Source: Escherichia phage mogra. Taken from it: a stretch of DNA of 64,000 nt. Positions 2,681-46,389 of this stretch are shown piece after piece. The stretch is taken from the sequence record MN850579.1. The stretch is one strand, 5' to 3'. The position numbers and the translations under genes were made by a program. Position 1 is the stretch's first letter, and each line of letters opens with the position of its first letter. The notes under the pieces were generated by a model. It did no database searches and had not been told where the DNA came from. It saw nothing but the letters and a program-made list of their open reading frames with translations.

Positions 2681-3367
2681 ATGAATAGTTCTAAAGTGTT
2701 TAATAGTCAAGCTCGTGCAATAGGTGGTTTTGCTCATGCGATTAAAAACGACCAGATTAAAAACGAGCCTATGTTCTTTAACTGCGATTTGAATTTTGCT
2801 TTTGATAATGGCGGCCCAATTACTCGTAGCTTTATCCAAAATCTCCCTGACGATTGGAAAGACTCGGATGTAGTATTTGATTCACGAGTCCACATGCTGA
2901 TGCCTGGTTGGTACCCTGCTATTCCTGGATATCACCATGACGATGTTCCACGCCCTGATATTCCAGTTGGTCAACATTTTATTACTGCAGGACAACCTGA
3001 TTATGACAATCCTCGCTATTTGTCTGAACATATTCTTGGTCTTGTTAACGCTGATGTGTGTCCTACTCATTTTGCAACAGGAACTGCAGAGTTCAGTCAG
3101 ATTCCTGATGGCGAACTTATCTATCGCCAGTGGCACAAAGAAGTCCTCGAAAAAATCGAAAAAGGCGAACTAGAGAAATGGGAAGCTCCAGACCGTACTC
3201 TTCTTCAGTTTGATTGGCAAACATGGCACACTGGTTCTCGTGCAATTAGTAATGGATGGCGTTGGTTCGGACGTGTATCTCGTAATACAGACCGAGTTAA
3301 AAAGATTACCAATGAAATTCGTGTCAATGCCCAAGTTTATCTGGAATTCCCTATGGAAGGTTGGTAA
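2681..3367 (+). CDS. hypothetical protein (228 aa)
   Basis: ORF immediately after upstream stop (TAATATG); no motif recognised. Confidence 0.6.
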   Translation: MNSSKVFNSQARAIGGFAHAIKNDQIKNEPMFFNCDLNFAFDNGGPITRSFIQNLPDDWKDSDVVFDSRVHMLMPGWYPAIPGYHHDDVPRPDIPVGQHFITAGQPDYDNPRYLSEHILGLVNADVCPTHFATGTAEFSQIPDGELIYRQWHKEVLEKIEKGELEKWEAPDRTLLQFDWQTWHTGSRAISNGWRWFGRVSRNTDRVKKITNEIRVNAQVYLEFPMEGW

Positions 3368-3858
3368 TGATTAACAAAACATATTGGTCTAATATAGACG
3401 ATGGCAACGAAGGTATTTCGTATTATTCGGTAGATTGGACAGGATGTCCATCCTACTTAGTGAAACATATTTGCCAAGAATTTAAAATCTACCAGCCAGC
3501 AGGTATTATTGTGAACAGATACATTAATGGATATCAACCTATCGATGAAGTAATACGAACAACTCAAGCTGAGCTTGAAAAGTTTTTCAATAAGTGCCAA
3601 TGGATAACAGGATGGATTATATTTGTACCGTCTATATGGTTTTTTAGTACTAAAGTAAGTGCCTTTGCTGTACTAGATATTATCGCTATCTTATTAGCAT
3701 CTACTATCGTAAGTATTATTGGTGGTATTATTGGTGGAGGTATTGTAGGCATCATTATTAATCTTATTAAAAGTAGTTTACAAGAACATAAAGACAAGAT
3801 AAAAGCCAAGAATAATGAAGTTGAACGTTTTATTACCGAATGCAGGAATTTGAGATGA
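3367..3858 (+). CDS. membrane protein with glycine-zipper helix
   Basis: ATG 3367 overlaps upstream stop (TAATG); hydrophobic segment ...SIIGGIIGGGIVGIIINLI... Confidence 0.5.
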   Translation: MINKTYWSNIDDGNEGISYYSVDWTGCPSYLVKHICQEFKIYQPAGIIVNRYINGYQPIDEVIRTTQAELEKFFNKCQWITGWIIFVPSIWFFSTKVSAFAVLDIIAILLASTIVSIIGGIIGGGIVGIIINLIKSSLQEHKDKIKAKNNEVERFITECRNLR

Positions 3859-4091
3859 GTATAGCAATTTACATTAAATCAGAATCATGTGATAGTTATC
3901 TGTACACATACGATAAAGATGTGTCAGAAGAAAAAATCAAAGACGATCTTAATATGGACCTTGATATGTTCTGTCCTATTGCAGATTACAAACTTGCGGT
4001 CTCTAATAGTGAAAGTCCATCTAAAGAAACGCGCATCGAAGAATTTATGTCCGAATTAATGGCCAAATCATGGGACCGAGATGATGAGTAA
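3855..4091 (+). CDS. hypothetical acidic protein
   Basis: ATG 3855 overlaps upstream stop (ATGA); 78 aa. Confidence 0.45.
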   Translation: MSIAIYIKSESCDSYLYTYDKDVSEEKIKDDLNMDLDMFCPIADYKLAVSNSESPSKETRIEEFMSELMAKSWDRDDE

Positions 4092-4539
4092 GAAAAATAA
4101 AGTGAAAGAACTATCAGCCGGTATTATTTTCCTTACCGAAGATAAAGAATTATTCATGGGGCGTGTAACTGGTTCTTGTCCTAAAGGTTCTTTAGCTCAT
4201 AGGTGGGATATTCCTAAAGGCCGTGTCGAACCTGGCGAATCTTCTATTGAAGCCGCTATTCGTGAATGCGAAGAAGAAACTGGGTTTACACAATATGACC
4301 CTGCCTTCCTGAAAGACCTAGGTGAACATCGTTACTCAGACAATAAGAATATTCATCTGTTCCTATATGCCATCCCTGTAGAGCACGAGCAATTCAGAAA
4401 CAGTGTTTGTAATTCCTATCATACATTCCCAGACGGACGACAGATTCCTGAATTTGATGCATTCGCTTTAATTAAACCTTCTCAATGGGAATATGTGATG
4501 GGCAAATCATTATATAAGGTGCTCACTACCCTCCTATAA
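4081..4539 (+). CDS. nudE: Nudix hydrolase
   Basis: Nudix box GRVEPGESSIEAAIRECEEETGF; sits immediately upstream of lysozyme as T4 nudE (e.1) does. Confidence 0.85.
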   Translation: MMSKKNKVKELSAGIIFLTEDKELFMGRVTGSCPKGSLAHRWDIPKGRVEPGESSIEAAIRECEEETGFTQYDPAFLKDLGEHRYSDNKNIHLFLYAIPVEHEQFRNSVCNSYHTFPDGRQIPEFDAFALIKPSQWEYVMGKSLYKVLTTLL

Positions 4540-4540
4540 G

Positions 4541-4573
4541 TAATAAATACCTCCTATAAACGTGGGAGGTATT
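4541..4573 (+). promoter_or_regulatory. RBS-sequestering hairpin with late-promoter-like box ahead of lysozyme
   Basis: 9-bp stem AATACCTCC (4546-4554) / GGAGGTATT (4565-4573) contains the SD and abuts ATG 4574; TAATAAATA 4541-4549 just upstream. Confidence 0.5.
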
Positions 4574-5062
4574 ATGAATATATTTGAAATGCTTCGTAAT
4601 GACGAAGGTCTTAGACTGACTTTATACAAAGACACTGAAGGCTTTTGGACGATTGGCATAGGCCATTTAGTAACAAAGAACCCGTCTTTAGCCGTAGCTA
4701 AAGCTGAACTTGACAGAATGATCGGTCGTAAATGCAACGGTACAATTACCCTTGATGAGGCTGAAAAGCTATTTAATGAAGACGTTGATAAAGCCGTTCG
4801 CGGAATCTTGGGTAATGCTAAACTTAAACCGGTGTATGATTCTTTAGACGCGGTTCGTCGATGTGCATTGGTCAATATGGTCTTCCAAATGGGTGTAGCA
4901 GGCGTCGCTGGTTTTACTAATTCTCTTCGTATGCTTCAACAGAAACGTTGGGACGAAGCGGCAGTAAATCTAGCCCAATCTAAATGGTATCGTCAGACAC
5001 CTAATCGCGCGAAACGCGTAATCTCAACATTTAAAACAGGAACTTGGAAAGCGTATATATGA
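4574..5062 (+). CDS. e: lysozyme (endolysin, T4 e type)
   Basis: [31 protein letters not shown]... near-identical to recalled T4 lysozyme N-terminus with catalytic Glu11/Asp20 context; 162 aa. Confidence 0.95.
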
Positions 5063-5340
5063 AAACATACAATGAATTTTTATCAGAATCTATTCTTAAC
5101 GAAGCTACTGACACATTTGCAACTAAGCTAGGTGCAGCTTTGGTTGAAGCCGAAAGTCTATTAGCACGTATTTCTGAACTTGCTAGTAAGATAGATACTC
5201 GCAAATTTGAACGTACCAGCGATATCGTTAAGCTCGAAGCCTTGTTGCGTATGTGCGATAAACCGGAAGAAATCGCTAAGAACGGCTCGCTGATGAAACA
5301 ACGTCTTGAAAAATATATTTCAGGCGCTTCAGAAAAATAG
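5059..5340 (+). CDS. internal-protein-like protein with capsid targeting sequence
   Basis: ATG 5059 overlaps lysozyme stop (ATGA); N-terminus [10 protein letters not shown] matches the T4 internal-protein CTS MKTYQEFIAE. Confidence 0.6.
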
Positions 5341-5341
5341 T

Positions 5342-5395
5342 GTTTACTTCCTCCAAGGACTTTGATACTATACATCTATCAACTACTTGGAGGAA
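5342..5395 (+). promoter_or_regulatory. early-type promoter embedded in an inverted repeat that can sequester the denV SD
   Basis: GTTTAC 5342-5347; arm TTCCTCCAAG 5348-5357 between -35 and -10; complementary arm CTTGGAGGAA 5386-5395 carries the SD. Confidence 0.55.
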
Positions 5396-5398
5396 ATT

Positions 5399-5812
5399 AT
5401 GACTCGTATCAATTTGACACTTGTTTCTGAACTGACCGACCAACATCTTATGGCTGAGTATCGTGAATTACCACGCGTATTTGGTGCAGTCCGTAAACAT
5501 GTTCAAAACGGTAAACGTGTAAAGGATTTTAAAATCTCTCCAACATTTATCTTAGGCACAGGTCACGTAACATTCTTTTACGACAAACTCGAATTTTTAC
5601 GTTTACGACAAATCGAGCTAATCGCTGAATGCTTGAAACGTGGTTTCAAAATCAAGGACACGACAGTCCAGGATATTTCCGACATCCCTGCCGAATTTCG
5701 TAATAATTATGTCCCGTCTGAAGCGTCCATTGCGATAAGTCAAGCACGCTTAGATGAAAAAATTGCTCAACGTCCGACTTGGTACAAATACTATGGTAAA
5801 TCAATTTACTAA
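5399..5812 (+). CDS. denV: endonuclease V (pyrimidine dimer DNA glycosylase)
   Basis: [31 protein letters not shown]... matches recalled T4 endo V; ATG 5399 after GGAGG; 137 aa. Confidence 0.93.
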
Positions 5813-5818
5813 GGAAAA

Positions 5819-6079
5819 ATGAAAATGTATCAAGAATTTATCGCTGAAGCAGATGCCAAAGGTCCTAAATTTAAAGTTAAAGCTTTCATTGGTGATGCCG
5901 AAGACTTTGGCTCATTAAAACGTAATGGGTATTCTTTCTTAGGTGGCGATGGTAAAGAAATCAACACCTATGCAAAACGTAGTGAAATTGCTTATGTTGT
6001 AGCAAGTCCTAAAGTAGATGTTGACGATATTGGATACGATTTTAACAACTTCGGAATTATTTCTGGCGGTAAAGCTTAA
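5819..6079 (+). CDS. internal-protein-like protein with capsid targeting sequence
   Basis: N-terminus MKMYQEFIAEA; 86 aa. Confidence 0.6.
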   Translation: MKMYQEFIAEADAKGPKFKVKAFIGDAEDFGSLKRNGYSFLGGDGKEINTYAKRSEIAYVVASPKVDVDDIGYDFNNFGIISGGKA

Positions 6080-6142
6080 ACGGTTTACGCTTAAGTATTA
6101 ATATGGTATAATTACTCTATCAAAACAAACAAGGAAACAAAA

Positions 6143-6721
6143 ATGAAAACGTATAAAGAATTTATCGCCGAGGCCTTTGCAGGAAAAGCTCAAGGCATTA
6201 ATAAGGACGAGTGGAATTATCGTGGCGGAAACGGCTTTGACCCTAAAACTGCTCCACTTGAACGATATCTGGCCACAAAAGCTTCTGATTTTAAAGCCTT
6301 CGCTTGGGAAGGACTACGCTGGCGTAACGATCTAAATATTGAAGTTGACGGACTTAAATTTGCTCATATTGAAGATGTTGTTGCTAGTAACTTAGACGCA
6401 GCTTTTGTTAAAGCCGACAGTGACCTTCGTCGCTGGAATTTAAAACTGTTCTCTAAACAAAAAGGCCCGAAGTTTGTGCCTAAAGCAGGTAAATGGGTCA
6501 TTGATAATAAATTAGCTAAAGCTGTCAACTACGCCGGTCTTGAATTTGCCAAGCATAAATCATCATGGAAAGGTCTTGATGCAATGGCTTTCCGTAAAGA
6601 ATTTGCCGATGTTATGGCTAAAGGCGGCTTTAAGGCAGAAATAGATACAACTAAGGGCACGTTTAAAGACGCTAATGTTCAGTACGCTTACGCCGTTGCT
6701 AATGCAGCCCGTAATTCCTAA
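6143..6721 (+). CDS. internal protein (IPIII-sized) with capsid targeting sequence
   Basis: N-terminus MKTYKEFIAEA; 192 aa, basic. Confidence 0.65.
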   Translation: MKTYKEFIAEAFAGKAQGINKDEWNYRGGNGFDPKTAPLERYLATKASDFKAFAWEGLRWRNDLNIEVDGLKFAHIEDVVASNLDAAFVKADSDLRRWNLKLFSKQKGPKFVPKAGKWVIDNKLAKAVNYAGLEFAKHKSSWKGLDAMAFRKEFADVMAKGGFKAEIDTTKGTFKDANVQYAYAVANAARNS

Positions 6722-6762
6722 TAAAGCTAATACTCAGACCTATTTACATTTAAAGGAAACAT

Positions 6763-7065
6763 ATGAAAACATATCAAGAATTTATTACTGAAGCGCGAGT
6801 GAGTGCAGGTAAATTAGAAGCCGCTATAAATAAAAAGGCCCATTCATTTCATGATTTGTCCGATAAAGACCGTAAGAAACTTGTAAGCCTTTATATTGAC
6901 AAAGAGCGTATTCTCGCTCTTCCTGGCGCTAATGAAGGTAAACAGGCCAAGCCTTTGAATGCTGTCGAAAAGAAAATTGATAACTTTGCTTCTAAATTCG
7001 GTATGTCTATGGATGACCTTCAGCAAGCGGCTATCGAAGCAGCTAAAGTAATTAAAGGTAAATAA
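6763..7065 (+). CDS. internal protein (IPII-sized) with capsid targeting sequence
   Basis: N-terminus MKTYQEFITEA; 100 aa. Confidence 0.65.
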   Translation: MKTYQEFITEARVSAGKLEAAINKKAHSFHDLSDKDRKKLVSLYIDKERILALPGANEGKQAKPLNAVEKKIDNFASKFGMSMDDLQQAAIEAAKVIKGK

Positions 7066-7178
7066 CAGTTTACTTTCTCCTAGAATTGTGATAGTATATT
7101 CATAATTACTTGGAGGGGTAAATACAGAAATGGACAATTCATGCGCCACGGAATGGCCCAACCTAAAAGAGAAACTAA

Positions 7179-7718
7179 ATGAGAACATTTTTAACTGGTC
7201 CTTATCTATCCCTGATGAATGCTTTTACACACCATTCTGATGCTAGAGTAGAAGAAATTTGTAAGAATGGTTATGTCCCACCATTTGAAGACGTACTCAA
7301 GCAGTACTGTACACTTCGTTTAGACGGTGGCAGACAATCAGGTAAATCGTCCGCAGTAACTAATTTTGCTGTTAATTGGCTATACGATGGTGGAACAGTT
7401 ATTGTTCTTTCTAATACTTCAGCTTATGCTAAAATTTCTGCTGGCAACATTAAAAAAGAATTTTCTCGTTATTCTAGCGATGATATTCGATTCCGTTTAT
7501 TTACTGATTCTGTTCGTAGTTTTATTGGCAATGAAGGTTCTAAATTCCGTGGATTAACGCTTTCTCGTATTCTGTATATAATTGACGAGCCTATTAAAGC
7601 TCCTGATATGGATAAGATTTACAATGTCCACATTAAAACAGTACAGCACTGCTGCAAAAGCAAATATTGCATCGGCGGTAATGCTCGTCCTCAATTTTTT
7701 GTGATTGGAATGCAATGA
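7179..7718 (+). CDS. P-loop NTPase-like protein
   Basis: Walker A-like GGRQSGKSS and Walker B-like LYIIDE; 179 aa. Confidence 0.5.
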   Translation: MRTFLTGPYLSLMNAFTHHSDARVEEICKNGYVPPFEDVLKQYCTLRLDGGRQSGKSSAVTNFAVNWLYDGGTVIVLSNTSAYAKISAGNIKKEFSRYSSDDIRFRLFTDSVRSFIGNEGSKFRGLTLSRILYIIDEPIKAPDMDKIYNVHIKTVQHCCKSKYCIGGNARPQFFVIGMQ

Positions 7719-8023
7719 TGACCACTATTGAAGTTTTTGAGTATTGTTATAACAGCCCAGTATGCAATAAAAGGGCTCTTGTAGAAAATTACGAGATTTA
7801 CCATTTTAAACCTAAACGATATCGTTTGACTAAAGGTCCGTTCGCAGGGCAGCAGGTTCTTTGTACTGCTCCTAATGCACGGTTGATGACTAGTATTCCA
7901 CATTTCAAAATGGAATTTATTGATGGGCCATTTAAGGGATTAATCACTCAAAGTTTAATGGCGTTTAATTCCGACCCATTTTTGATTAAAGAAAAATCTT
8001 GGATAAATTTATTTTCTAATTGA
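7715..8023 (+). CDS. hypothetical protein
   Basis: ATGA overlap with upstream gene; 102 aa. Confidence 0.5.
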   Translation: MMTTIEVFEYCYNSPVCNKRALVENYEIYHFKPKRYRLTKGPFAGQQVLCTAPNARLMTSIPHFKMEFIDGPFKGLITQSLMAFNSDPFLIKEKSWINLFSN

Positions 8024-39835: not shown

Positions 39836-40471
39836 ATGAAAACTACACCAATCACTATCGCTATTGACGCAATTGTAAAACAAGCTTCATCTCTTGCCAC
39901 TATGGCTAAAGTAATTAGTCAAAACCATGCTCGTTATAATGCTATTCTAGAAACTCTTCGACGCCCTGGACTTAGTAATTATGAAAGCCGGGTAATTATT
40001 ACAGGTGTTGGTAAGAATGCTAATATCGCAACTAAAGCTTCCGAGACTTTTGCTTCACTAGGTATTCCTAGCATGTATTTGAATACCGGGCATTATTCTC
40101 ATGGTGACGCAGGATTTATTGCACCTAATGATGTATTAGTTCACATCAGTCGTTCTGGTAAGACTGAAGAAATGATAGGTGTTGCTAAACATCTTCGTAT
40201 GATTCGTCCTCAGGTTAAACAGATTCTGTTACATTGTAACCCTGACATTCCACAAGAATACGAAGCTCTTTTTGATTATACGTTCTGTACCGGTATCGCG
40301 GTAGAAGTTGACGAGAACTCTTTAGCTCCGACAATGTCTACTACATTGTTGTTAGCGCTTATCGATACGTTCGCTATCAACCTTTCGTCTGAACGTGGAT
40401 TTACCTCTAATGATTTCCTTAAGTTCCATCCAGGCGGTGCACTAGGTGCCATGTTACGAGGCGAACAATGA
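39836..40471 (+). CDS. SIS-domain sugar-phosphate isomerase, arabinose-5-phosphate isomerase (KpsF/GutQ)-like
   Basis: ITGVGKNANIATKASETFASLG, HISRSGKTEE, LAPTMSTT and HPGGALG match recalled KpsF/GutQ SIS signatures; no CBS domains. Confidence 0.78.
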   Translation: MKTTPITIAIDAIVKQASSLATMAKVISQNHARYNAILETLRRPGLSNYESRVIITGVGKNANIATKASETFASLGIPSMYLNTGHYSHGDAGFIAPNDVLVHISRSGKTEEMIGVAKHLRMIRPQVKQILLHCNPDIPQEYEALFDYTFCTGIAVEVDENSLAPTMSTTLLLALIDTFAINLSSERGFTSNDFLKFHPGGALGAMLRGEQ

Positions 40472-40611
40472 AAGCAATAACAATAGGACTTTTACTATTG
40501 ATGCTTGCCATGACTATCTACTGGAGCTTAACGGCTCCGGTAATGATTCCAACACTTGTAATTGGATGGATTATGATTGGACTACAAGCAAAGTATGAAT
40601 GCTTTAACTAG
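40468..40611 (+). CDS. 47-aa two-helix membrane peptide
   Basis: ATG 40468 overlaps upstream stop (ATGA); MKAITIGLLLLMLAMTIYW...PTLVIGWIMIGL; not in track. Confidence 0.45.
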   Translation: MKAITIGLLLLMLAMTIYWSLTAPVMIPTLVIGWIMIGLQAKYECFN

Positions 40612-40652
40612 AATAGTGTACAATACTCCTACTTACCAATGAGGACTTCAAC

Positions 40653-42338
40653 ATGAAAAAAGCTGTTATTCTTGGTGCTGGACTGGCAACTCGTTTGTAT
40701 CCAATAACGCATCATATTCCTAAGGTGCTTGTGAACTATAAACAAGACACTATTCTGAGCAATTTGTATACAATTTATTCTGACCTTGGCGCAGATGAAA
40801 TTATTGTAGTAGTTCATTCAAAATTTGCTGAAACTGTTCGAGCTTATTGTGAGCAAGAAGGGTTCAATGTGACTATTCGTACAGTTGATGAAGCGTATGG
40901 TTCTGCTTATGCTCTTGCTAAATTACACAAAGATTTAGACGGTCATAATGTAATTGTTAACTGGTGCGATATTATTCCTGATTTTGGTTCATGGTCTTGG
41001 AATGTTAACGCAATCTATGTTAAGGGTGATGAATGTCGATATAATTTCGACGGTGAAAATATCACTAACGTAGGTTCAACAGGTGGTAATGTTGTAGGAA
41101 TTTATCAGTTCAAAGACTGGGAATTCTATATGGGTTCTACTGATGAGGAAATTCATGAATACTGCAAAGGACGTGATTTCGTAGAATTCCTTTACAGCGC
41201 CGCATTCAATAAATCAGAGCTTATGAATCTAATTGATTTAGGTGATATGCCTAAACTTGAAAAGGCTCATGAAGTTCGTGAACTTAATCGTAGTTTTAAC
41301 GCAGTTGAAATTGGTGAAGAAACTGTAACTAAATTCGCATTAACCGAACAGGGTCGAGCTCTTCAGAAAGATGAGATTTCATGGTATTTGAAAGTGAAAT
41401 CAGATTCAGTTCCTCAGTTAGTTTCTGTTAATGAAAATAACTTTGAAATGGAACGCATTAAAGGTAAGCCAGCATTTGAATATATTAAATCCAAATCAAG
41501 TCTTGCTCGTCCACAAATTGTTGATGCAATTTTAGATGCACTGAAATTCAGCACAGACACTTATTTTGTAAGTCCTGAAACTGTTCGTCGTGATTTCACT
41601 AAAGAATTCTATACGAAAGTTATTGATCGTTGTGAAAGCATTCAACCATTGATTGATTCATTTGGTAAAATCACGCATGTGAACTACACTAAGATTGGAC
41701 GTCTGAAGCCAATGCTGAAACAAGCTTTAGAACACCTTATTCGTTATCATAACCGTTCTCAGGGACAGTACTCTGTTATTCATGGCGACCCGAACTTCAG
41801 TAATACTATGATTACTGATAATGGCGAAGTCAAGTTTATCGACCCTCGTGGATATTTTGGTGAAACCAAGATTTACGGGCCGAAATTGTACGACGAAGCT
41901 AAAGTGCTTTACGCTGTTTCAGGTTATGATGAATTCAACGCTAATCCGACCTGGGGGCAGTTTACTATTGATGAAACAACTTGTAATGTGACTATTAACA
42001 TCAATCCATTAGTTTACAAATATGGAAAGATGAGTTCGTTTAACGAGTATCATCATTTGGCAGTGGCAATTATCTGGATTGCATTAGGTGGTTATTTCAA
42101 GAATAATCCACTTAAAGCGGTAGCCGCATATTATAAAGGTATGGAACTTCTGACTAAGCAATTACGTAACATGGGCCGTGTACTTCAGGACGGCTCTATT
42201 AGTTATGACGTAGCAGAACCTGTAACGGCTACTCTGATTACAAAAAATCCTGGTAAGTGGGTACTAACTGATAAAGAAACTGGTGTTTCCTATCGTCCAA
42301 TAGGTGGCGATATCACTCATCAATGGGAACGAATCTAA
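40653..42338 (+). CDS. bifunctional sugar-1-phosphate nucleotidyltransferase / APH-fold sugar kinase
   Basis: N-terminal LGAGLATRLYP...PK (GxGxR NTP-transferase motif); C-terminal VIHGDPNFSNTMITDNGEVKFIDPRG (kinase catalytic and metal loops); 561 aa. Confidence 0.72.
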   Translation: MKKAVILGAGLATRLYPITHHIPKVLVNYKQDTILSNLYTIYSDLGADEIIVVVHSKFAETVRAYCEQEGFNVTIRTVDEAYGSAYALAKLHKDLDGHNVIVNWCDIIPDFGSWSWNVNAIYVKGDECRYNFDGENITNVGSTGGNVVGIYQFKDWEFYMGSTDEEIHEYCKGRDFVEFLYSAAFNKSELMNLIDLGDMPKLEKAHEVRELNRSFNAVEIGEETVTKFALTEQGRALQKDEISWYLKVKSDSVPQLVSVNENNFEMERIKGKPAFEYIKSKSSLARPQIVDAILDALKFSTDTYFVSPETVRRDFTKEFYTKVIDRCESIQPLIDSFGKITHVNYTKIGRLKPMLKQALEHLIRYHNRSQGQYSVIHGDPNFSNTMITDNGEVKFIDPRGYFGETKIYGPKLYDEAKVLYAVSGYDEFNANPTWGQFTIDETTCNVTININPLVYKYGKMSSFNEYHHLAVAIIWIALGGYFKNNPLKAVAAYYKGMELLTKQLRNMGRVLQDGSISYDVAEPVTATLITKNPGKWVLTDKETGVSYRPIGGDITHQWERI

Positions 42339-42724
42339 TGCACCGCGTAGAAAACATGCTTAATCTTTGTTTTGATGTCGATGATTGTATAACAGAGTGG
42401 AATAACAATCGTGATTACGTGAACTTCAAGCCAGACGTCGAAATGGTGTCTGCCATTAATGCCCTGTATGATGCAGGGCATACCATAACGCTTTACACTG
42501 CTCGCGGTATGAAGTCAGTCGGTCCTGGTCGTATAGCAATTGACATTCTCCCAAGTCTGATTCAGAACTTGGCAAACATTGGCTTGAAGTACCATAATTT
42601 GCTAACACATAAACCAGTATATGATTGGATTATCGACGACAAAGCTATGCGTCCTGACGAATTCAAAGCTCTTATGAATAAAGGCGAATTCGAAACATTT
42701 AAATCATATAAACCGAATCTATAA
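42338..42724 (+). CDS. HAD-superfamily phosphatase
   Basis: Motif I CFDVDDCIT, Thr/Arg motif LYTARG, C-terminal DD (WIIDDKA); ATG 42338 overlaps upstream stop (TAATG). Confidence 0.6.
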   Translation: MHRVENMLNLCFDVDDCITEWNNNRDYVNFKPDVEMVSAINALYDAGHTITLYTARGMKSVGPGRIAIDILPSLIQNLANIGLKYHNLLTHKPVYDWIIDDKAMRPDEFKALMNKGEFETFKSYKPNL

Positions 42725-42784
42725 TAATTTAAGTAAGACCTGCAAAAAAAAACCATCGCATCAATTAACGCGAGATGCAAAAAA

Positions 42785-43945
42785 ATGAATACTTTTAAAA
42801 TCGGAACGAATTTTGATTTAGCTCTTCTTGATAAAATCGTAGAGCTCAATAAAACTTATCCTAATAGCTTGATAAATGAAGTATACGGCTCTACAAGAGA
42901 AATGGCTTTTGTAGCAGCCAGACCTGATTTTAGGCTTCCTGACATTGACAAAAAGATGTTAGAAGATTATGTTAAACGTTGTAACGAATTAGGTATTTGC
43001 TTTAACTATACACTCAACACGATAAATCCTGGTTCAAAAAGAGAACTAGTTGAGTGGAAGAAGAAAGCTATTCAGGATTATGTTCAGTATCTTTGGTCAA
43101 TAGGCGTATGGCGTATTACTATCGCTAACCCTGTTGTTATGGAAATTGTTCGTGAAGTCAATAAAGACATTGAGATTGAAGTTTCAACAATTCTACATGT
43201 CGATGCTGTAACTCAAATCAAATACTTGCATGACCAGTATAATATCAAAAAGGTCTGCTGTGGAATTCATAAGAACCGTTCAGTTTCTTTCCTGAAGCGT
43301 GCAGCAGAGTTTTGCAATAAGAACAATATAATATTTGAAGTTCTTGTAAATGAGTTCTGTTCTAATGCTGGTAAAGGGTATACAACACATTGTAGCTATC
43401 GTGACTCTTGCTATATTTTCCATAGTACTGATGTTACAGCTGATGATGCTAAATCCTTAAACGGATATCCAATGCAGCACTGTATTAAAGCTCGTGATAC
43501 AGACCCATTTAACTGGTTGAGAACTCGTTTTGTTCGTCCTCAAGATTTGAAACTTTATAATGATATCGGTATCACTCAATTCAAAGTTTCAGGACGTACA
43601 GGTAGCACAGACTACATTTTGAAAGTTCTTGAAGCATACGCTTCTGAAAAGTTTGAAGGTAATTTGTTAGAACTGTGGAAGCCTTTAGAGACTATTTTCA
43701 CTCTTGAAAACGAAACTGAGTTTTCACATACAGTAAATATTGAAACCTCTTTGTTAGATGGCTTTTTAGAAAAAAGGTGGTTCAGACATCCAGATTTCGA
43801 TTGTGCTAATGAAATCTGCGGGACGACGTGTACATATTGTGAAAGATATTATAAACGTCAATTATCTAAAAACGGGTTAGCAGAAAACTCTATATCTATT
43901 ATTGATATAACTAACTCTGATGACGCTTTGAGGTACCCGGAATGA
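42785..43945 (+). CDS. peptidase-U32-family protein (family includes O2-independent hydroxylases)
   Basis: Block pattern FNYTLNT...ITIANPVV...EIEVST...VLVNEFC...G...HCSYRDSC parallels recalled U32 TIM-barrel signature; second cluster CANEICGTTCTYC. Confidence 0.5.
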   Translation: MNTFKIGTNFDLALLDKIVELNKTYPNSLINEVYGSTREMAFVAARPDFRLPDIDKKMLEDYVKRCNELGICFNYTLNTINPGSKRELVEWKKKAIQDYVQYLWSIGVWRITIANPVVMEIVREVNKDIEIEVSTILHVDAVTQIKYLHDQYNIKKVCCGIHKNRSVSFLKRAAEFCNKNNIIFEVLVNEFCSNAGKGYTTHCSYRDSCYIFHSTDVTADDAKSLNGYPMQHCIKARDTDPFNWLRTRFVRPQDLKLYNDIGITQFKVSGRTGSTDYILKVLEAYASEKFEGNLLELWKPLETIFTLENETEFSHTVNIETSLLDGFLEKRWFRHPDFDCANEICGTTCTYCERYYKRQLSKNGLAENSISIIDITNSDDALRYPE

Positions 43946-44181
43946 TTTCTAGAAAAACTTTTAACCACCGACTTAATGAAGAGATTTTGACTATGAAACT
44001 GAACACTAATGAACAAATTCTTAAAAAGGCCCTGATGGGCCTGTTTGAAACTAAAGCGGCTAAAGTGATTAAAGAACCTGTTCAATTGGAATACTACGCT
44101 GATGCATTTCTTCATAGTGTTCTTGGAAGTATCGATGCTGAATCTTTACGTTATATCAACATTGTCAAGAAATTCAAATAA
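43942..44181 (+). CDS. hypothetical small protein
   Basis: ATGA overlap with U32-like gene; 79 aa; no motif. Confidence 0.45.
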   Translation: MISRKTFNHRLNEEILTMKLNTNEQILKKALMGLFETKAAKVIKEPVQLEYYADAFLHSVLGSIDAESLRYINIVKKFK

Positions 44182-44223
44182 GCTTTACGAATTGAGTATA
44201 TAATAAATTGTATTGAGGTAAAC

Positions 44224-44940
44224 ATGGGAAAACATAACACAATGAAATATATCAAAGCCGCAGATTTTCAAACCGCATTTAAAGCAGTCAATCGTGAAAT
44301 TTTAGAAAACCCGGAATTCGTAACTGATTCTCGTATTGGACGTTGTAATGAAATTGGGTCTATGACAGTAGTTGTTGACACTCCATCATCATTCAAAATG
44401 ACCGACCCACGTATTAACCGCATCTCTTATGAATATGCCGAAGACTTCTGGAAGTTTATGATTTCCGGTGGTACCAACGCAGAAGAAGCGTTTAAGGCAT
44501 ATCCTAATGTCGCTAAATTTATTTCTAAACCAAAATCAGATGTTTTGCCGGCGAACTTCAACACTTTCTATGGTCCTCGCATTGCGGCCCAATTACCAGC
44601 TCTTCTAAAAGAACTTAAAGAGAAGCCTAACTCTCGAAGAGTTGTGTTCCAAATTCTAGAAAGTTCTGATCAGGCTTTGCTTGATTCGGACGAAACGCTT
44701 GAATATCCATGTACTGACTCAGTGACTTATTATATTCGTGATGGTAAGCTTTATACCCACTGTCATATGCGTTCTCAGAACTGTGCTGTTGTTATGCAGT
44801 TGGATTTTTATCTCCAAGGAAAATTACTTCATTATATCGCTAACGAATGTGGTGTAGAAGTTGGTGATTATACTCATACCATGGTAAGTGCCCATGTGTT
44901 TGAACGTGATTTTGATTATGTTAAAGGATTCCTTGACTAA
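44224..44940 (+). CDS. thymidylate-synthase-fold pyrimidine C5 enzyme, dCMP hydroxymethylase-like, divergent
   Basis: PNSRR phosphate loop; catalytic Pro-Cys (YPCTD); MRSQN...QLDFY with Asp at the ThyA Asn177-equivalent position; EVGDY...H. Confidence 0.78.
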   Translation: MGKHNTMKYIKAADFQTAFKAVNREILENPEFVTDSRIGRCNEIGSMTVVVDTPSSFKMTDPRINRISYEYAEDFWKFMISGGTNAEEAFKAYPNVAKFISKPKSDVLPANFNTFYGPRIAAQLPALLKELKEKPNSRRVVFQILESSDQALLDSDETLEYPCTDSVTYYIRDGKLYTHCHMRSQNCAVVMQLDFYLQGKLLHYIANECGVEVGDYTHTMVSAHVFERDFDYVKGFLD

Positions 44941-45839
44941 TGGCTATTTTCCGCGTACCAATCTTGAGTATGCGGTCTTATGAAACTGGACAGTATGCTA
45001 TCCTTAAGGATGGCAACTTCCAACTTCATTTGCACCGTGCTAATCCAGGCGATGTGATTACATATCCACGTAATGCATCTGATATTAAAGAATGTGAACG
45101 TCTTTTCCCAGAATTTAAGTTTGTTCCATTATGGTATAAAGATAACGCGTATAACACTCGTAAATATTTCTGGTCCGAAAATGAATTTGTGGTTGATTCA
45201 TTAATTGCTTATTATGATTGTGATTTTCTAATCACAGATATCACTGGATATAACGGCGCTTTTGATGTAGAATTCAATTTCAATATCACGGCAGACCCTA
45301 ATAAACCACGTTTTTATATTGGCGAATTCTTAAAAACCGATATGTTGTCAGTTAATAGTTCACTTCAAACTACTGTGTTGAATGAACGTCAAAAAGAAGT
45401 GCTGGTTAACGCAGGTGCAGATGGTAATAAGATTATCGTAACTCAGAAAGTTATACGTCCTTCCATCATGCAGCGTCTTGTAGGTGATTTGGCTCCTATT
45501 CATCTAGATGGTATTTTTCATCCATTTCGAATTAGTGACCCGTGCTATCGTTTTGAACAAGTGGTTGAATGTGCAATTCAATTAGGCCAACCGCTTTATA
45601 TAACCGATCCAAATAATAGCTTCGACAGAAATAAGTATCCTGAAGAAGCGCTGATTCGAATTTTTAAACCAACTAAAACTGAGTACTATCAAATTCTTAA
45701 AGGACGTCCGAAGATTCAATATTTCGAAAATCCTGAAGAAGTATTTCATCCAGGTCTTGGTGAGTTCATCTACTTTAATGCTTTAATTTCTTCGCCGTAT
45801 AATATACCTAAATACGAAGATGTCGTAATCGAGGAATAA
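44940..45839 (+). CDS. hypothetical protein (299 aa), candidate DNA sugar transferase
   Basis: TAATG-coupled to the TS-fold gene; no recognisable motif; function inferred from context only. Confidence 0.5.
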   Translation: MAIFRVPILSMRSYETGQYAILKDGNFQLHLHRANPGDVITYPRNASDIKECERLFPEFKFVPLWYKDNAYNTRKYFWSENEFVVDSLIAYYDCDFLITDITGYNGAFDVEFNFNITADPNKPRFYIGEFLKTDMLSVNSSLQTTVLNERQKEVLVNAGADGNKIIVTQKVIRPSIMQRLVGDLAPIHLDGIFHPFRISDPCYRFEQVVECAIQLGQPLYITDPNNSFDRNKYPEEALIRIFKPTKTEYYQILKGRPKIQYFENPEEVFHPGLGEFIYFNALISSPYNIPKYEDVVIEE

Positions 45840-45840
45840 A

Positions 45841-46389
45841 ATGGCTAAAATTATTTTAGTAGATGGCCCGGATAATGCCGGTAAAACAACTTTCATTAAT
45901 GACATAATGGAAATTAGTGAAAGATATGTAAAGATTGATTTCCCTAAACGAACAGTTGATGGACGTTTCGATGTTAAGTCTCGAAATGAAGTTGGTTGTT
46001 TCGAAACGATGTTGAATTATTTAGACCCTACTAAGATTTATCTGTTAGACCGTGGATATATTAGTAACTGGGTTTATGGACGTATTCGACAAGATGCGGA
46101 CTCTGTTCTTGATGTTTATGAGCAGGATTATGTTCGTCTTTGCCAAAACCATGATGTGTTCACAATTATTTTAACACGTAACGAAATGACTGAAAGTTTT
46201 GAAGACGACCTTATTACTTTGTCTTCATTCGGTTTTAATACAGTCATTTCACATTTTGAAGAGTTTGCAATTCATAACAAAATCCAAACGTATCAATTAC
46301 TTAATCATGATGGTGCTAACAAAGTTATAGGATTTAATGCAAGCGAACGTAATGGTTTGATTACAGAAATCATCAAATGGGCTCGTTAA
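45841..46389 (+). CDS. P-loop nucleotide kinase (thymidylate-kinase-like)
   Basis: P-loop VDGPDNAGKTT; DRGY motif (LLDRGYISNWVYGR) reminiscent of Tmk DRY/DRH; 182 aa. Confidence 0.62.
   Translation: MAKIILVDGPDNAGKTTFINDIMEISERYVKIDFPKRTVDGRFDVKSRNEVGCFETMLNYLDPTKIYLLDRGYISNWVYGRIRQDADSVLDVYEQDYVRLCQNHDVFTIILTRNEMTESFEDDLITLSSFGFNTVISHFEEFAIHNKIQTYQLLNHDGANKVIGFNASERNGLITEIIKWAR

What the first reader, a model, noticed from the sequence alone, without database searches (positions are those of the whole stretch)
5059..7065. Four internal-protein genes with capsid targeting sequences flanking denV
Four ORFs (93, 86, 192 and 100 aa) begin [32 protein letters not shown] and MKTYQEFITEA, matching the T4 internal-protein CTS (MKTYQEFIAE, cleaved after Glu by the prohead protease). 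Internal proteins are injected with the DNA, and T4 IPI* inhibits a glucosyl-hmC-specific type IV restriction system. In a phage with apparently different DNA chemistry these divergent IPs are good candidates for injected anti-restriction factors of new specificity.
Basis: partly seen in the sequence, partly recalled or inferred. Interest (0 to 1): 0.6.

Follow-up and report, generated by a model that had tools for sequence, protein, structure and literature searches.

The report
Known T-even phage internal-protein gene cluster
Four genes around denV in this RB69-like (Mosigvirus) phage encode capsid-targeted "internal proteins" injected with the DNA; all four are already in public databases, two are near-identical to T4 IPII and IPIII (shown in 2025 to block GmrSD restriction enzymes), so the finding is real but ordinary.

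Summary
Four same-strand ORFs (5059-5340, 5819-6079, 6143-6721, 6763-7065) start MK[T/M]Y.EF; this motif occurs nowhere else in six frames (0.005 expected). The window is a Mosigvirus (RB69-like T-even phage).

The 192- and 100-aa proteins are orthologs of T4 IPIII (91% identity) and IPII (94%), so they are not divergent. T4 Ip3 and Ip2 were shown in 2025 to inhibit distinct GmrSD type IV restriction enzymes.

The 93-aa protein belongs to the Ip5 family (48-51% identity to T2/PP01 Ip5). The 86-aa protein belongs to a small family annotated "internal head protein" (RB69 ORF125c). Neither resembles T4 IPI or the McrBC inhibitor Bas37_0260 beyond the leader. Their targets are unknown, and fold and profile searches gave nothing.

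All four sequences exist 100% identical in GenBank.

The "different DNA chemistry" is real: the window encodes the RB69 gp48 5-hydroxy-dCMP synthase (99%) and has no glucosyltransferases. But the IP families cross DNA-chemistry boundaries.

Across eight Mosigvirus genomes, Ip5-like, denV and IP86 are constant. IPIII and IPII belong to a variable cassette set whose breakpoints lie in the leader/CTS codons. Such IP shuffling was described in 1994-2014.

Verdict: already known, low interest. The Ip5-like protein and IP86 remain testable anti-defence candidates.

The parts
4546..4573 (+). Hairpin that sequesters the Shine-Dalgarno sequence of gene e. One-mismatch late-promoter-like octamers lie just upstream, at 4535 and 4542.
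   Evidence: The arms AATACCTCC/GGAGGTATT are 100% complementary. T4 has two perfect TATAAATA boxes at the same place and none directly upstream of ipIII, ipII or denV. The window has TATAAGTA and AATAAATA there.
4574..5062 (+). Gene e (T4-type lysozyme). Its stop codon overlaps the start of the Ip5-like gene.
   Evidence: Matches Pfam Phage_lysozyme. 71% nt identity to T4 nudE-e. The ATGA overlap at 5059-5062 is read from the sequence.
5059..5340 (+). Ip5-family internal head protein (93 aa). The leader [15 protein letters not shown] has two gp21-type sites, LSE|S after residue 10 and LNE|A after residue 15.
   Evidence: PHROG 3499 'internal head protein', E 1e-46. 48-51% identity over the full length to Ip5 of PP01, T2 and Bas37_0261; UniRef names these Ip5. 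Glu15 is invariant across the five-sequence Ip5-family alignment (the window protein, RB69 ORF127c and the Ip5 proteins of three T-even phages), whereas RB69 ORF127c lacks Glu10; in a wider nine-sequence alignment two metagenome members have Asp at that position. The sequence is 100% identical to proteins of phages mogra and phiE142. The AF2 model is a three-helix protein, pLDDT 75.5.
5342..5396 (+). T4-early-type promoter (GTTTAC, N17, TACTAT) embedded in an imperfect inverted repeat that ends in the denV Shine-Dalgarno sequence. It resembles a PeSL element.
   Evidence: Seen. It is repeated at 81% identity at 7068-7098 (D5). The PST/T4 PeSL consensus is TTTACW-N17-TAYWAT (PMC4122927).
5399..5812 (+). 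denV, endonuclease V (pyrimidine-dimer glycosylase). It is not an internal protein.
   Evidence: Pfam PF03013 and PHROG 1183. 79% nt identity to T4 denV.
5819..6079 (+). 86-aa internal head protein (RB69 ORF125c family). Leader MKMYQEFIAE|A.
   Evidence: PHROG 35655 and PHROG 2667 'internal head protein'. 95% identity to RB69 ORF125c and 65-74% to Gaprivervirus and Salmonella-phage proteins. 100% identical to AlbertHofmann bas47_0224. An exhaustive HMMER search found only 7 representatives; the distant members P0027 and P0028 also carry CTS-like leaders. The AF2 model is alpha/beta, pLDDT 67.
6083..6172 (+). Portable leader made of an early promoter (TTTACG, N17, TATAAT with TG), a Shine-Dalgarno sequence and the ten CTS codons of ipIII. 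It is the recombination joint between cassettes.
   Evidence: Promoter matches 10 of 12 positions. Homology of the window to RB69 ends at 6171. Segment 6119-6171 matches two places in phi25-307, ahead of the Ip10-like gene and ahead of ipIII. A 71-nt direct repeat with the IP86 leader is 75% identical (D1).
6143..6721 (+). IPIII (Ip3) ortholog, 192 aa.
   Evidence: 91% aa identity to T4 IPIII, E 4e-131. 89% nt identity. PHROG 5341. 100% identical to phage mogra QHR67065.1.
6763..7065 (+). IPII (Ip2) ortholog, 100 aa.
   Evidence: 94% aa identity to T4 IPII. 94% nt identity. PHROG 7857. The exact sequence is on 224 contigs and is named 'ipII protein'.
7068..7188 (+). Second early-promoter element plus the vs.8 leader. 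It is the right-hand cassette boundary.
   Evidence: Promoter seen. 7068-7112 is 93% identical to the element that in T4 lies upstream of ipIII. Segment 7140-7188 is duplicated in phi25-307 on both sides of the 109-aa IP cassette, and homology to RB69 resumes at 7140.
44224..44940 (+). Context only: ortholog of RB69 gp48 (5-hydroxy-dCMP synthase). It defines the phage's arabinosyl-5-hydroxycytosine DNA chemistry.
   Evidence: 236 of 238 residues identical to RB69 ORF048c. Only 25% identity to T4 gp42. Pfam Thymidylat_synt. The function of gp48 is shown in PMC13326640.

Best explanation
This is the second internal-protein locus (the e/denV locus) of a Mosigvirus. It carries four internal-protein genes.

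Inferred mechanism, by homology to T4. Each protein is made with a 10-15-residue N-terminal capsid targeting sequence. That sequence docks it to the scaffolding core of the prohead. The prohead protease gp21 removes it after an (L/I)-x-Glu site. The mature protein stays in the head and is injected with the DNA. There it acts stoichiometrically against first-line, DNA-targeting defences before any phage gene is expressed.

IPIII and IPII are orthologs of T4 Ip3 and Ip2. They most likely inhibit, by direct binding, distinct subtypes of GmrSD-family type IV restriction enzymes (the ECOR17 GmrS1/GmrSD2 type and the ECOR21/BrxU type). GmrSD-family enzymes also cut arabinosylated Mosigvirus DNA.

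The Ip5-like and 86-aa proteins are packaged in the same way. Their most likely role is the same kind of injected, target-specific anti-defence function, with targets still unknown.

Expression is inferred to come from T4-type early promoters in front of denV and ipIII. Late in infection it would come from read-through from the late promoters of gene e. The Ip5-like gene is translationally coupled to e through an ATGA overlap.

The locus evolves by gain and loss of whole IP cassettes, through recombination in the repeated leader (promoter, Shine-Dalgarno sequence, CTS codons).
For: Motif and coordinates.

Orthology to T4 IPIII and IPII.

Family membership of the other two.

The locus is syntenic with the T4 nudE-e-ipIII-ipII-denV-vs.8 region and with RB69.

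CTS determinants are conserved (against PMC9026906).

In T4, Ip1, Ip2 and Ip3 each block one GmrSD variant with no cross-protection (PMC12373910). Ip3 works in the cytoplasm without its CTS (PMC9391042). Another CTS protein, Bas37_0260, blocks McrBC (bioRxiv 10.1101/2025.11.20.689424).

BrxU, a GmrSD-family enzyme, restricts a Mosigvirus and cleaves ara-dC DNA (PMC13390438). That Mosigvirus, NP, has neither IPII nor IPIII at this locus.

Cassette structure: eight Mosigvirus genomes show eight combinations. Ip5-like, denV and IP86 are constant. A fixed-order subset of Ip10-like, IPIII, IPII and a 109-aa IP varies. The breakpoints lie at the leader/CTS.

Promoters and the hairpin.
Against: Nothing here shows that these particular proteins are in virions, are cleaved, or inhibit anything. 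All functional statements rest on homology.

The window's IPIII differs from T4's at 17 of 190 aligned residues, and its IPII at 7 positions of 100. IP specificity can be narrow, so the targets may have shifted.

The mature Ip5-like and IP86 proteins are near-neutral (pI 6.3 and 6.4), unlike the basic IPII and IPIII (pI 9.6-9.7). They are constant across Mosigvirus rather than variable, which is less typical of arms-race genes.

No perfect late promoter lies in the cluster except one inside ipII, at 6825.

The AF2 models are only moderately confident and match no known fold.
Confidence: 0.75

Rival explanations
1. The Ip5-like and 86-aa proteins are inhibitors of a new specificity, matched to this phage's arabosyl-5-hydroxycytosine DNA. 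That is, they block modification-dependent nucleases or glycosylases that recognise arabinosyl-5hoC rather than glucosyl-hmC.
For: The phage has the RB69-type chemistry. These two proteins are present in all eight Mosigvirus genomes examined. Neither is homologous to T4 IPI or to Bas37_0260. Type IV enzymes do attack ara-dC DNA (PMC13390438).
Against: The families are not confined to arabinosylating phages. Ip5 is in T2, PP01 and Bas37, which are glucosyl-hmC phages. IP86 homologs are in 16 Salmonella-phage records, while Salmonella phages are nearly absent among the 342 records with the RB69-type synthase. Known IPs bind the enzyme, not the DNA. Mosigvirus NP carries both proteins (its IP86 variant is 89% identical) and is still restricted by BrxU.
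Confidence: 0.2
2. The Ip5-like and 86-aa proteins are mainly head-core or assembly accessories (scaffold-associated filler), not anti-defence factors.
For: They are the constant members of the locus, whereas the proven anti-restriction types (IPII, IPIII) are the variable ones. T4 IPIII mutants show slower head assembly and more polyheads (PMC9026906). The Ip5-like gene is translationally coupled to the late gene e.
Against: IP genes are dispensable in T4 on laboratory hosts. In the HIDEN-SEQ supplementary tables the Ip5-family gene bas37_0261 is non-essential. Insertions in it are depleted about 4-fold (log2FC -2.09, adjusted p < 1e-5) on one clinical isolate relative to K-12. This is in the first resampling sheet, which is listed as K-12 versus CFT073. 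That pattern points to a host-specific role rather than an assembly role. Their near-neutral pI argues against a DNA counter-ion role.
Confidence: 0.15
3. The CTS-like N-termini of the two small proteins are relics of cassette recombination. The proteins would act only as early cytoplasmic proteins and would not be packaged.
For: Early-type promoters precede denV/IP86 and ipIII. The leader is a recombination joint, so it can be inherited without selection. RB69 ORF127c has a degenerate leader (MKTYMNFYQN) and RB69 ORF123c has Ala instead of Glu at position 10.
Against: The targeting residues Tyr4 and Phe7 are kept even in the degenerate RB69 copy, and a second cleavage site (LNE|A) is conserved. 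Distant IP86 relatives P0027 and P0028 keep CTS-like leaders at 40-43% overall identity, which indicates selection on the leader.
Confidence: 0.08

Closest known systems
T4 internal proteins IPII (Ip2) and IPIII (Ip3), injected inhibitors of GmrSD-family type IV restriction enzymes (Silas et al. 2025, PMC12373910; Srikant et al. 2022, PMC9391042)
   Same: The window's 100-aa and 192-aa proteins are full-length orthologs, at 94% and 91% identity. They have the same leader, the same order (ipIII then ipII) and the same genomic neighbourhood between e and vs.8.
   Different: Here denV and two other IP genes lie between e and ipIII, whereas T4 has e-ipIII-ipII-denV. The host phage has arabinosyl-5hoC DNA, not glucosyl-hmC DNA. 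There are 17 (IPIII) and 7 (IPII) residue differences of unknown effect on specificity.
Ip5 of T2, RB70, PP01 and Bas37 (polymorphic ipI locus; named by Repoila et al. 1994, per UniRef Q38378 and the GenBank annotations)
   Same: The 93-aa protein aligns over its whole length at 48-51% identity, with a conserved core KLG.AL.EAE.L..RI.ELA...EIAKNG..MK.RLE. It has a CTS-type leader and a conserved Glu15 site.
   Different: It sits at the e/denV locus, coupled to gene e, instead of between 57B and trna.4. It is 8 residues longer at the C-terminus. No function is known for any Ip5.
RB69 ORF125c family (PHROG 2667/35655, 'internal head protein')
   Same: The 86-aa protein is 95% identical to RB69 ORF125c and occupies the same position just downstream of denV.
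   Different: Nothing meaningful; it is the same gene. The family is small (7 representatives at 50% clustering) and uncharacterised.
T4 IPI* (GmrSD-CT596 inhibitor) and Bas37_0260 (McrBC inhibitor)
   Same: The concept is shared: a CTS leader, packaging, injection and anti-type-IV restriction.
   Different: There is no sequence similarity beyond the leader. Neither model gave a significant match to any solved structure in the PDB (best Foldseek E 0.59 and 3.8). Neither gene is in this window. RB69 keeps its IPI homolog (gp155) at the other IP locus (PMC13326640).
PeSL-mediated and IP-locus modular shuffling in T4-like phages (Arbiol 2010; Comeau, Arbiol and Krisch 2014, PMC4122927; Repoila 1994)
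   Same: Cassette gain and loss is bounded by repeated elements made of an early promoter, a Shine-Dalgarno sequence and a start region. The promoter hexamers fit the PST/T4 PeSL consensus.
   Different: Here the joint extends into the coding sequence, to about CTS codon 8-10. The minicircle mechanism proposed for PeSLs was not tested.

Membership tests
T-even CTS-bearing internal (head) proteins | N-terminal leader of MKTYxEF type, with aromatic residues at positions 4 and 7 (targeting determinants) | tested here: met
   All four proteins have Tyr4 and Phe7. The determinants are taken from the IPIII leader mutagenesis summarised in PMC9026906.
T-even CTS-bearing internal (head) proteins | gp21 prohead-protease site (L/I)-x-Glu at the end of the leader, followed by a small residue | tested here: met
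   The sites are LSE|S (and LNE|A) in the Ip5-like protein, IAE|A in IP86, IAE|A in IPIII and ITE|A in IPII. This is a sequence-level test only.
T-even CTS-bearing internal (head) proteins | Encoded at one of the two T-even IP loci (57B-trna.4, or e-denV-vs.8) | tested here: met
   The window shows synteny with T4 and RB69 in the order nudE-e-...-denV-...-vs.8.
T-even CTS-bearing internal (head) proteins | Present in the mature virion in processed form and injected with the DNA | not testable with these tools
   This needs virion proteomics. A literature search found no Mosigvirus virion proteome covering these proteins.
T-even CTS-bearing internal (head) proteins | The same genome encodes the prohead protease gp21 and the scaffold core gp22 | not tested
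   The late head-gene region lies outside the 64-kb window. These genes are expected in all T4-like phages (established knowledge).
IPIII (Ip3) orthologs | Full-length high-identity alignment to T4 IPIII | tested here: met
   173 of 190 residues identical, E 4e-131. PHROG 5341, E 6e-117.
IPII (Ip2) orthologs | Full-length high-identity alignment to T4 IPII | tested here: met
   81 of 86 residues identical in the BLAST HSP; 7 differences over all 100 residues in the alignment. PHROG 7857, E 5e-55.
IPII/IPIII as GmrSD inhibitors | Blocks GmrSD-ECOR21 (Ip2) or GmrS1/GmrSD2-ECOR17 (Ip3) in plaque assays | not testable with these tools
   Shown for the T4 proteins only (PMC12373910).
Ip5 family | Significant full-length similarity to named Ip5 proteins | tested here: met
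   51% identity to PP01 Ip5 (E 1e-25) and 48% to Bas37_0261. A profile search returns T2 and RB70 'Ip5'.
T4 IPI / IPI* family | Sequence or fold similarity of the mature part to IPI* | tested here: not met
   BLASTP against T4 IPI gave E 6.1 for IP86 and 0.01 for IP93, the latter over the leader only. Neither model gave a significant match to any solved structure in the PDB (best Foldseek E 0.59 and 3.8), so no IPI*-like fold was detected.
Bas37_0260 family (CTS-bearing McrBC inhibitor) | Similarity beyond the ten-residue leader | tested here: not met
   Only residues 1-11 to 1-17 align with any of the four window proteins.

The most novel reading that the evidence does not exclude
The two Mosigvirus-constant proteins (Ip5-like and IP86) are injected inhibitors of defence systems that none of Ip1, Ip2, Ip3 or Bas37_0260 covers. 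Examples would be a GmrSD subtype, another modification-dependent nuclease or glycosylase, or a non-restriction first-line defence, possibly ones common in natural hosts such as UPEC. The e/denV locus would then work as a fixed-order, recombination-editable array of anti-restriction cassettes whose content predicts host range.
Probability: 0.35. Interest if true: 0.45.

Novelty: already known. Interest (0 to 1): 0.2.

Why it matters
Internal proteins are the phage's first counter-defence molecules, present in the cell before any phage gene is expressed. Knowing which IP blocks which type IV enzyme helps predict the host range of therapeutic T-even phages.

For this window the practical value is modest. 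It offers two uncharacterised but conserved IP families (Ip5-like and IP86) as candidates. It also offers a natural presence/absence panel of IPII, IPIII, Ip10-like and 109-aa cassettes across Mosigvirus genomes, which could be matched against GmrSD subtypes.

Nothing here changes current understanding.

Tried and rejected
Pfam, NCBIfam and PADLOC scans of the four proteins gave nothing above threshold. The only hits were weak, sub-cutoff ones for IPII: DUF7412, PbeC and ATP synthase delta.

A PDB sequence search found no relatives for any of the four.

AlphaFold2 models were made for the Ip5-like protein (three helices, pLDDT 75.5) and IP86 (alpha/beta, pLDDT 67, with the other four models much worse). 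Foldseek against the PDB gave no hit better than E 0.6 and TM 0.4. Against BFVD it returned only family members, plus a non-significant 'Ip7' hit at E 0.45.

The exhaustive HMMER search with IP86 returned 7 representatives. One, P0029 (417 aa, KGKYGF repeats), I judged a compositional or spurious match.

I tested whether the newly reported McrBC inhibitor Bas37_0260 is a homolog of any window IP. It is not; its neighbour bas37_0261 is the Ip5 homolog.

I looked for perfect late promoters upstream of each IP gene. There are none; the only TATAAATA lies inside ipII.

The generic sigma-70 promoter and terminator scans were not enriched over shuffles.

I considered that IP86 or Ip5 might track the arabinosyl DNA chemistry, and rejected this on their distribution.

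I searched the literature for Mosigvirus virion proteomics and found none covering these proteins.
Full report
**1. Observation**

The ORF list and the raw sequence show four + strand ORFs exactly as described:
- 5059-5340: 93 aa, [10 protein letters not shown]...
- 5819-6079: 86 aa, MKMYQEFIAEA...
- 6143-6721: 192 aa, MKTYKEFIAEA...
- 6763-7065: 100 aa, MKTYQEFITEA...

denV lies at 5399-5812 (Pfam Pyr_excise, PHROG 1183). One of the four genes is upstream of it and three are downstream.

A six-frame regular-expression scan of the whole 64 kb finds MK.Y.EF only at these four ORF starts. The relaxed pattern MK.[YFW].[ED][FYW] gives the same four. 200 shuffles gave a mean of 0.005 matches.

**2. 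What the window is**

Megablast of 4000-7800 finds 838 phage records. The best are Mosigvirus genomes at 96-98% identity (vB_EcoM_G2469, AV114, phi25-307, moha).

The gene order is nudE (4081-4539), e (4574-5062), Ip5-like, denV, IP86, ipIII, ipII, vs.8-like (7179-7718). This is the Mosigvirus version of the T4 region nudE-e-ipIII-ipII-denV-vs.8.

All four proteins exist with 100% identity in GenBank, in phages mogra, phiE142 and AlbertHofmann among many others. They are mostly annotated 'internal head protein' or 'ipII protein'.

**3. Identity of the four proteins**

The 192-aa protein is 91% identical to T4 IPIII (E 4e-131). The 100-aa protein is 94% identical to T4 IPII. These two are therefore not divergent.

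At the DNA level they are closer to T4 (89% and 94%) than the flanking genes are: nudE-e 71%, denV 79%, vs.8-vs.6 83%. RB69 itself lacks both at this locus. This fits exchange as a module.

The 93-aa protein hits PHROG 3499 'internal head protein' (E 1e-46). It is 48-51% identical over its full length to Ip5 of T2, PP01, RB70 and Bas37. In those Tequatroviruses Ip5 sits at the classical ipI locus, between 57B and trna.4.

The 86-aa protein is RB69 ORF125c (95% identity). Relatives at 65-74% identity occur in Gaprivervirus and in Salmonella T4-like phages. An exhaustive HMMER search finds only seven representatives. Two distant ones also carry CTS-like leaders.

Neither small protein resembles T4 IPI beyond the leader.

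**4. Leader and processing**

All four proteins keep Tyr4, Phe7, L/I8 and Glu10. These are the residues shown by mutagenesis of the IPIII leader to matter for targeting (4, 7) and processing (8, 10) (PMC9026906).

A refinement applies to the Ip5 family. Glu15 (LNE|A here, ITE|S in Ip5) is invariant in a five-sequence family alignment; two metagenome members of a wider nine-sequence alignment have Asp there. RB69 ORF127c has lost Glu10 (MKTYMNFYQNLSLNE|A), and Ip5 has Ala at position 8. The mature N-terminus of the 93-aa protein may therefore be Ala16 rather than Ser11.

Predicted mature proteins:

| Protein | Mass | pI |
|---|---|---|
| Ip5-like | 9.2 kDa | 6.3 |
| IP86 | 8.1 kDa | 6.4 |
| IPIII | 20.3 kDa | 9.6 |
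| IPII | 9.8 kDa | 9.7 |

**5. Expression signals (inferred)**

T4-early-type promoters (GTTTAC, N17, TAnnnT) lie at 5342 (before denV), 6083 (before ipIII; 10 of 12 matches with an extended TG) and 7068 (before vs.8).

The only perfect late box, TATAAATA, lies inside ipII at 6825.

In T4 the only late boxes in the whole nudE-denV stretch are the two just upstream of e. The window has one-mismatch versions at the same place. It also has the conserved hairpin that hides the e ribosome-binding site.

The Ip5-like start codon overlaps the e stop codon (ATGA at 5059-5062). Late synthesis of the IPs by read-through from e, with the Ip5-like gene translationally coupled to e, is therefore the most economical model. 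It is inference, not shown.

**6. Function: what is known**

- T4 IPI* inhibits GmrSD-CT596. RB69 has an IPI homolog at the other locus (PMC6024577; PMC13326640).
- Srikant et al. showed that IPIII is required on ECOR17 and works in the cytoplasm without its CTS (PMC9391042).
- Silas et al. 2025 showed that Ip2 blocks GmrSD-ECOR21 (BrxU-type) and Ip3 blocks the GmrS1/GmrSD2 doublet of ECOR17, with no cross-protection. They proposed that all proteins of the two Ip loci target GmrSD variants (PMC12373910).
- A further CTS protein, Bas37_0260, inhibits McrBC (bioRxiv 10.1101/2025.11.20.689424).

I retrieved Bas37 (phage KarlGJung, MZ501089). Bas37_0260 shares only the leader with the window proteins. 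Its neighbour bas37_0261 is the Ip5 homolog.

In that preprint's supplementary Tn-seq tables bas37_0261 is non-essential. In the first resampling sheet, listed as K-12 versus CFT073, it shows log2FC -2.09 with adjusted p < 1e-5. This is an unfollowed hint of a host-specific role for Ip5.

**7. Function: what I could add**

Profile scans (Pfam, NCBIfam, PADLOC) and a PDB sequence search gave nothing for any of the four proteins. AlphaFold2 models of the two small proteins, searched with Foldseek against the PDB and BFVD, gave no functional lead either.

**8. DNA chemistry**

tblastn with T4 proteins finds no alpha- or beta-glucosyltransferase in the window. At the gene-42 position it finds only a 25%-identical relative of T4 gp42.

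That ORF (44224-44940) is 99% identical to RB69 gp48, the 5-hydroxy-dCMP synthase (PMC13326640). It sits in a cluster with genes for SIS-domain, nucleotidyltransferase and U32-type proteins.

It does not follow that the IPs are chemistry-specific:
- Ip5 relatives occur in glucosyl-hmC phages.
- IP86 relatives occur in 16 Salmonella-phage records, while Salmonella phages are nearly absent among the 342 records with the RB69-type synthase.
- IPII and IPIII are shared by both chemistries.
- The GmrSD-family enzyme BrxU cuts ara-dC DNA and restricts Mosigvirus NP (PMC13390438).

NP's locus contains only the Ip5-like protein and IP86. Those two evidently do not protect against BrxU. NP lacks IPII, the T4-defined inhibitor of the BrxU type.

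**9. Locus dynamics**

Eight Mosigvirus genomes give eight cassette combinations. Ip5-like, denV and IP86 are always present, although IP86 is internally deleted in JS09. They are followed by a fixed-order subset of four cassettes: Ip10-like (104 aa), IPIII, IPII and a 109-aa IP.

| Genome | Variable cassettes present |
|---|---|
| Window | IPIII, IPII |
| phi25-307 | all four |
| moha | IPIII |
| RB69 | Ip10-like (truncated), 109-aa IP |
| NP | none |
| AlbertHofmann | Ip10-like, IPII |
| JS09 | Ip10-like, IPII |
| APCEc01 | Ip10-like, 109-aa IP |

Homology between the window and RB69 stops at 6171, the last CTS codons of ipIII, and resumes at 7140. Relative to the window, phi25-307 has two insertions. 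Each is flanked by a duplicated leader: 6119-6171 and 7140-7188.

The leaders contain early promoters that fit the published PST/T4 PeSL consensus. Modular shuffling of IP genes has been described before (Repoila 1994; Arbiol 2010; Comeau 2014, PMC4122927). JS09's own annotation cites 'Ip10' and a DenV entry from phage Pol from that early work.

The T4-like IPII and IPIII are the variable accessory cassettes in this genus, whereas the 'divergent' proteins are the constant ones.

**10. Verdict**

The feature is real and correctly recognised as a set of CTS internal-protein genes. The anti-restriction interpretation is right in kind. For IPII and IPIII it is already established by orthology. For the Ip5-like protein and IP86 it is an already-published, still-untested hypothesis.

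Novelty: already known. Interest: low, about 0.2.

What remains of value is two conserved, uncharacterised injected proteins and a natural cassette panel that makes clear, cheap predictions.

Noticed in passing
window 39836-46389 (gp48 ortholog at 44224-44940): RB69-type cytosine arabinosylation cluster between gene 43 and uvsX. It holds a SIS-domain isomerase, a 561-aa nucleotidyltransferase-domain protein, a U32-peptidase-like protein and a 5-hydroxy-dCMP synthase 99% identical to RB69 gp48. The window has no T4 a-gt or b-gt homologs.
   Followed up: partly
L001, L002, L004, L011-L014 compared with window 5059-7188: Eight Mosigvirus genomes carry eight different IP cassette combinations at this locus. 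Ip5-like, denV and IP86 are constant. A fixed-order subset of Ip10-like, IPIII, IPII and a 109-aa IP varies. Breakpoints fall in the duplicated leader/CTS sequences.
   Followed up: yes
L011 (phage NP, OY726582.1 73600-74629): Mosigvirus NP is reported as BrxU-sensitive. It has only the Ip5-like protein and IP86 at this locus, with no IPII or IPIII. This fits IPII being the BrxU-type GmrSD inhibitor. It also suggests that the Ip5-like protein and IP86 do not block BrxU.
   Followed up: partly
L004 2950-3279 (RB69 ORF123c) and L004 4423-4704 (RB69 ORF127c): RB69 ORF123c has Ala instead of Glu at leader position 10 (MKTYQEFIAA|V), so it is predicted not to be cleaved at that site. RB69 ORF127c has a degenerate leader (MKTYMNFYQN) but keeps the LNE|A site at residue 15.
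   Followed up: partly
L004 13051-13491 (RB69 ORF149c): A further CTS-bearing ORF of 146 aa (MKTYAEFLTEA...) lies in RB69 near e.8 and the tRNA genes. That position is outside this window, so Mosigviruses carry more IP genes than the two classical loci suggest.
   Followed up: no
window 7130-7188: A short ORF (MDNSCATEWPNLKEK...) lies upstream of the vs.8-like gene and out of frame with it. In phi25-307 the same leader is fused in frame to the 109-aa IP in the RefSeq annotation, where the true start is probably the internal MKTYQEFITE. This segment is the right-hand duplicated joint of that cassette.
   Followed up: partly
window 6825-6832: The only perfect T4 late-promoter box (TATAAATA) in 3000-8000 lies inside the ipII coding sequence, at the codons for AINKK. 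Whether it drives late transcription of the downstream vs genes is unknown.
   Followed up: no
window 5342-5372 and 7068-7098; T4 L003 2955-2999: Two copies, 81% identical, of an early-promoter element flank the denV-IP86-ipIII-ipII block. The second copy is 93% identical to the element that in T4 lies upstream of ipIII, which suggests promoter-element-mediated rearrangement of the locus.
   Followed up: partly
HIDEN-SEQ preprint supplement (file 8), gene bas37_0261 in L010 1364-1621: The Ip5-family gene of phage Bas37 shows about 4-fold depletion of transposon insertions on a clinical isolate relative to K-12 (adjusted p < 1e-5). This is in the first resampling sheet, listed as K-12 versus CFT073. 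The authors did not discuss it. The neighbouring 57B gene also shows -1.56.
   Followed up: partly
protein collection, cluster 2: The 90% cluster containing IP86 also contains many DenV proteins. This is apparently a clustering artefact caused by fused or mis-called denV-IP86 ORFs (for example P0012, which carries PF03013). Cluster-level annotations for IP86 can therefore wrongly read 'endonuclease V'.
   Followed up: no
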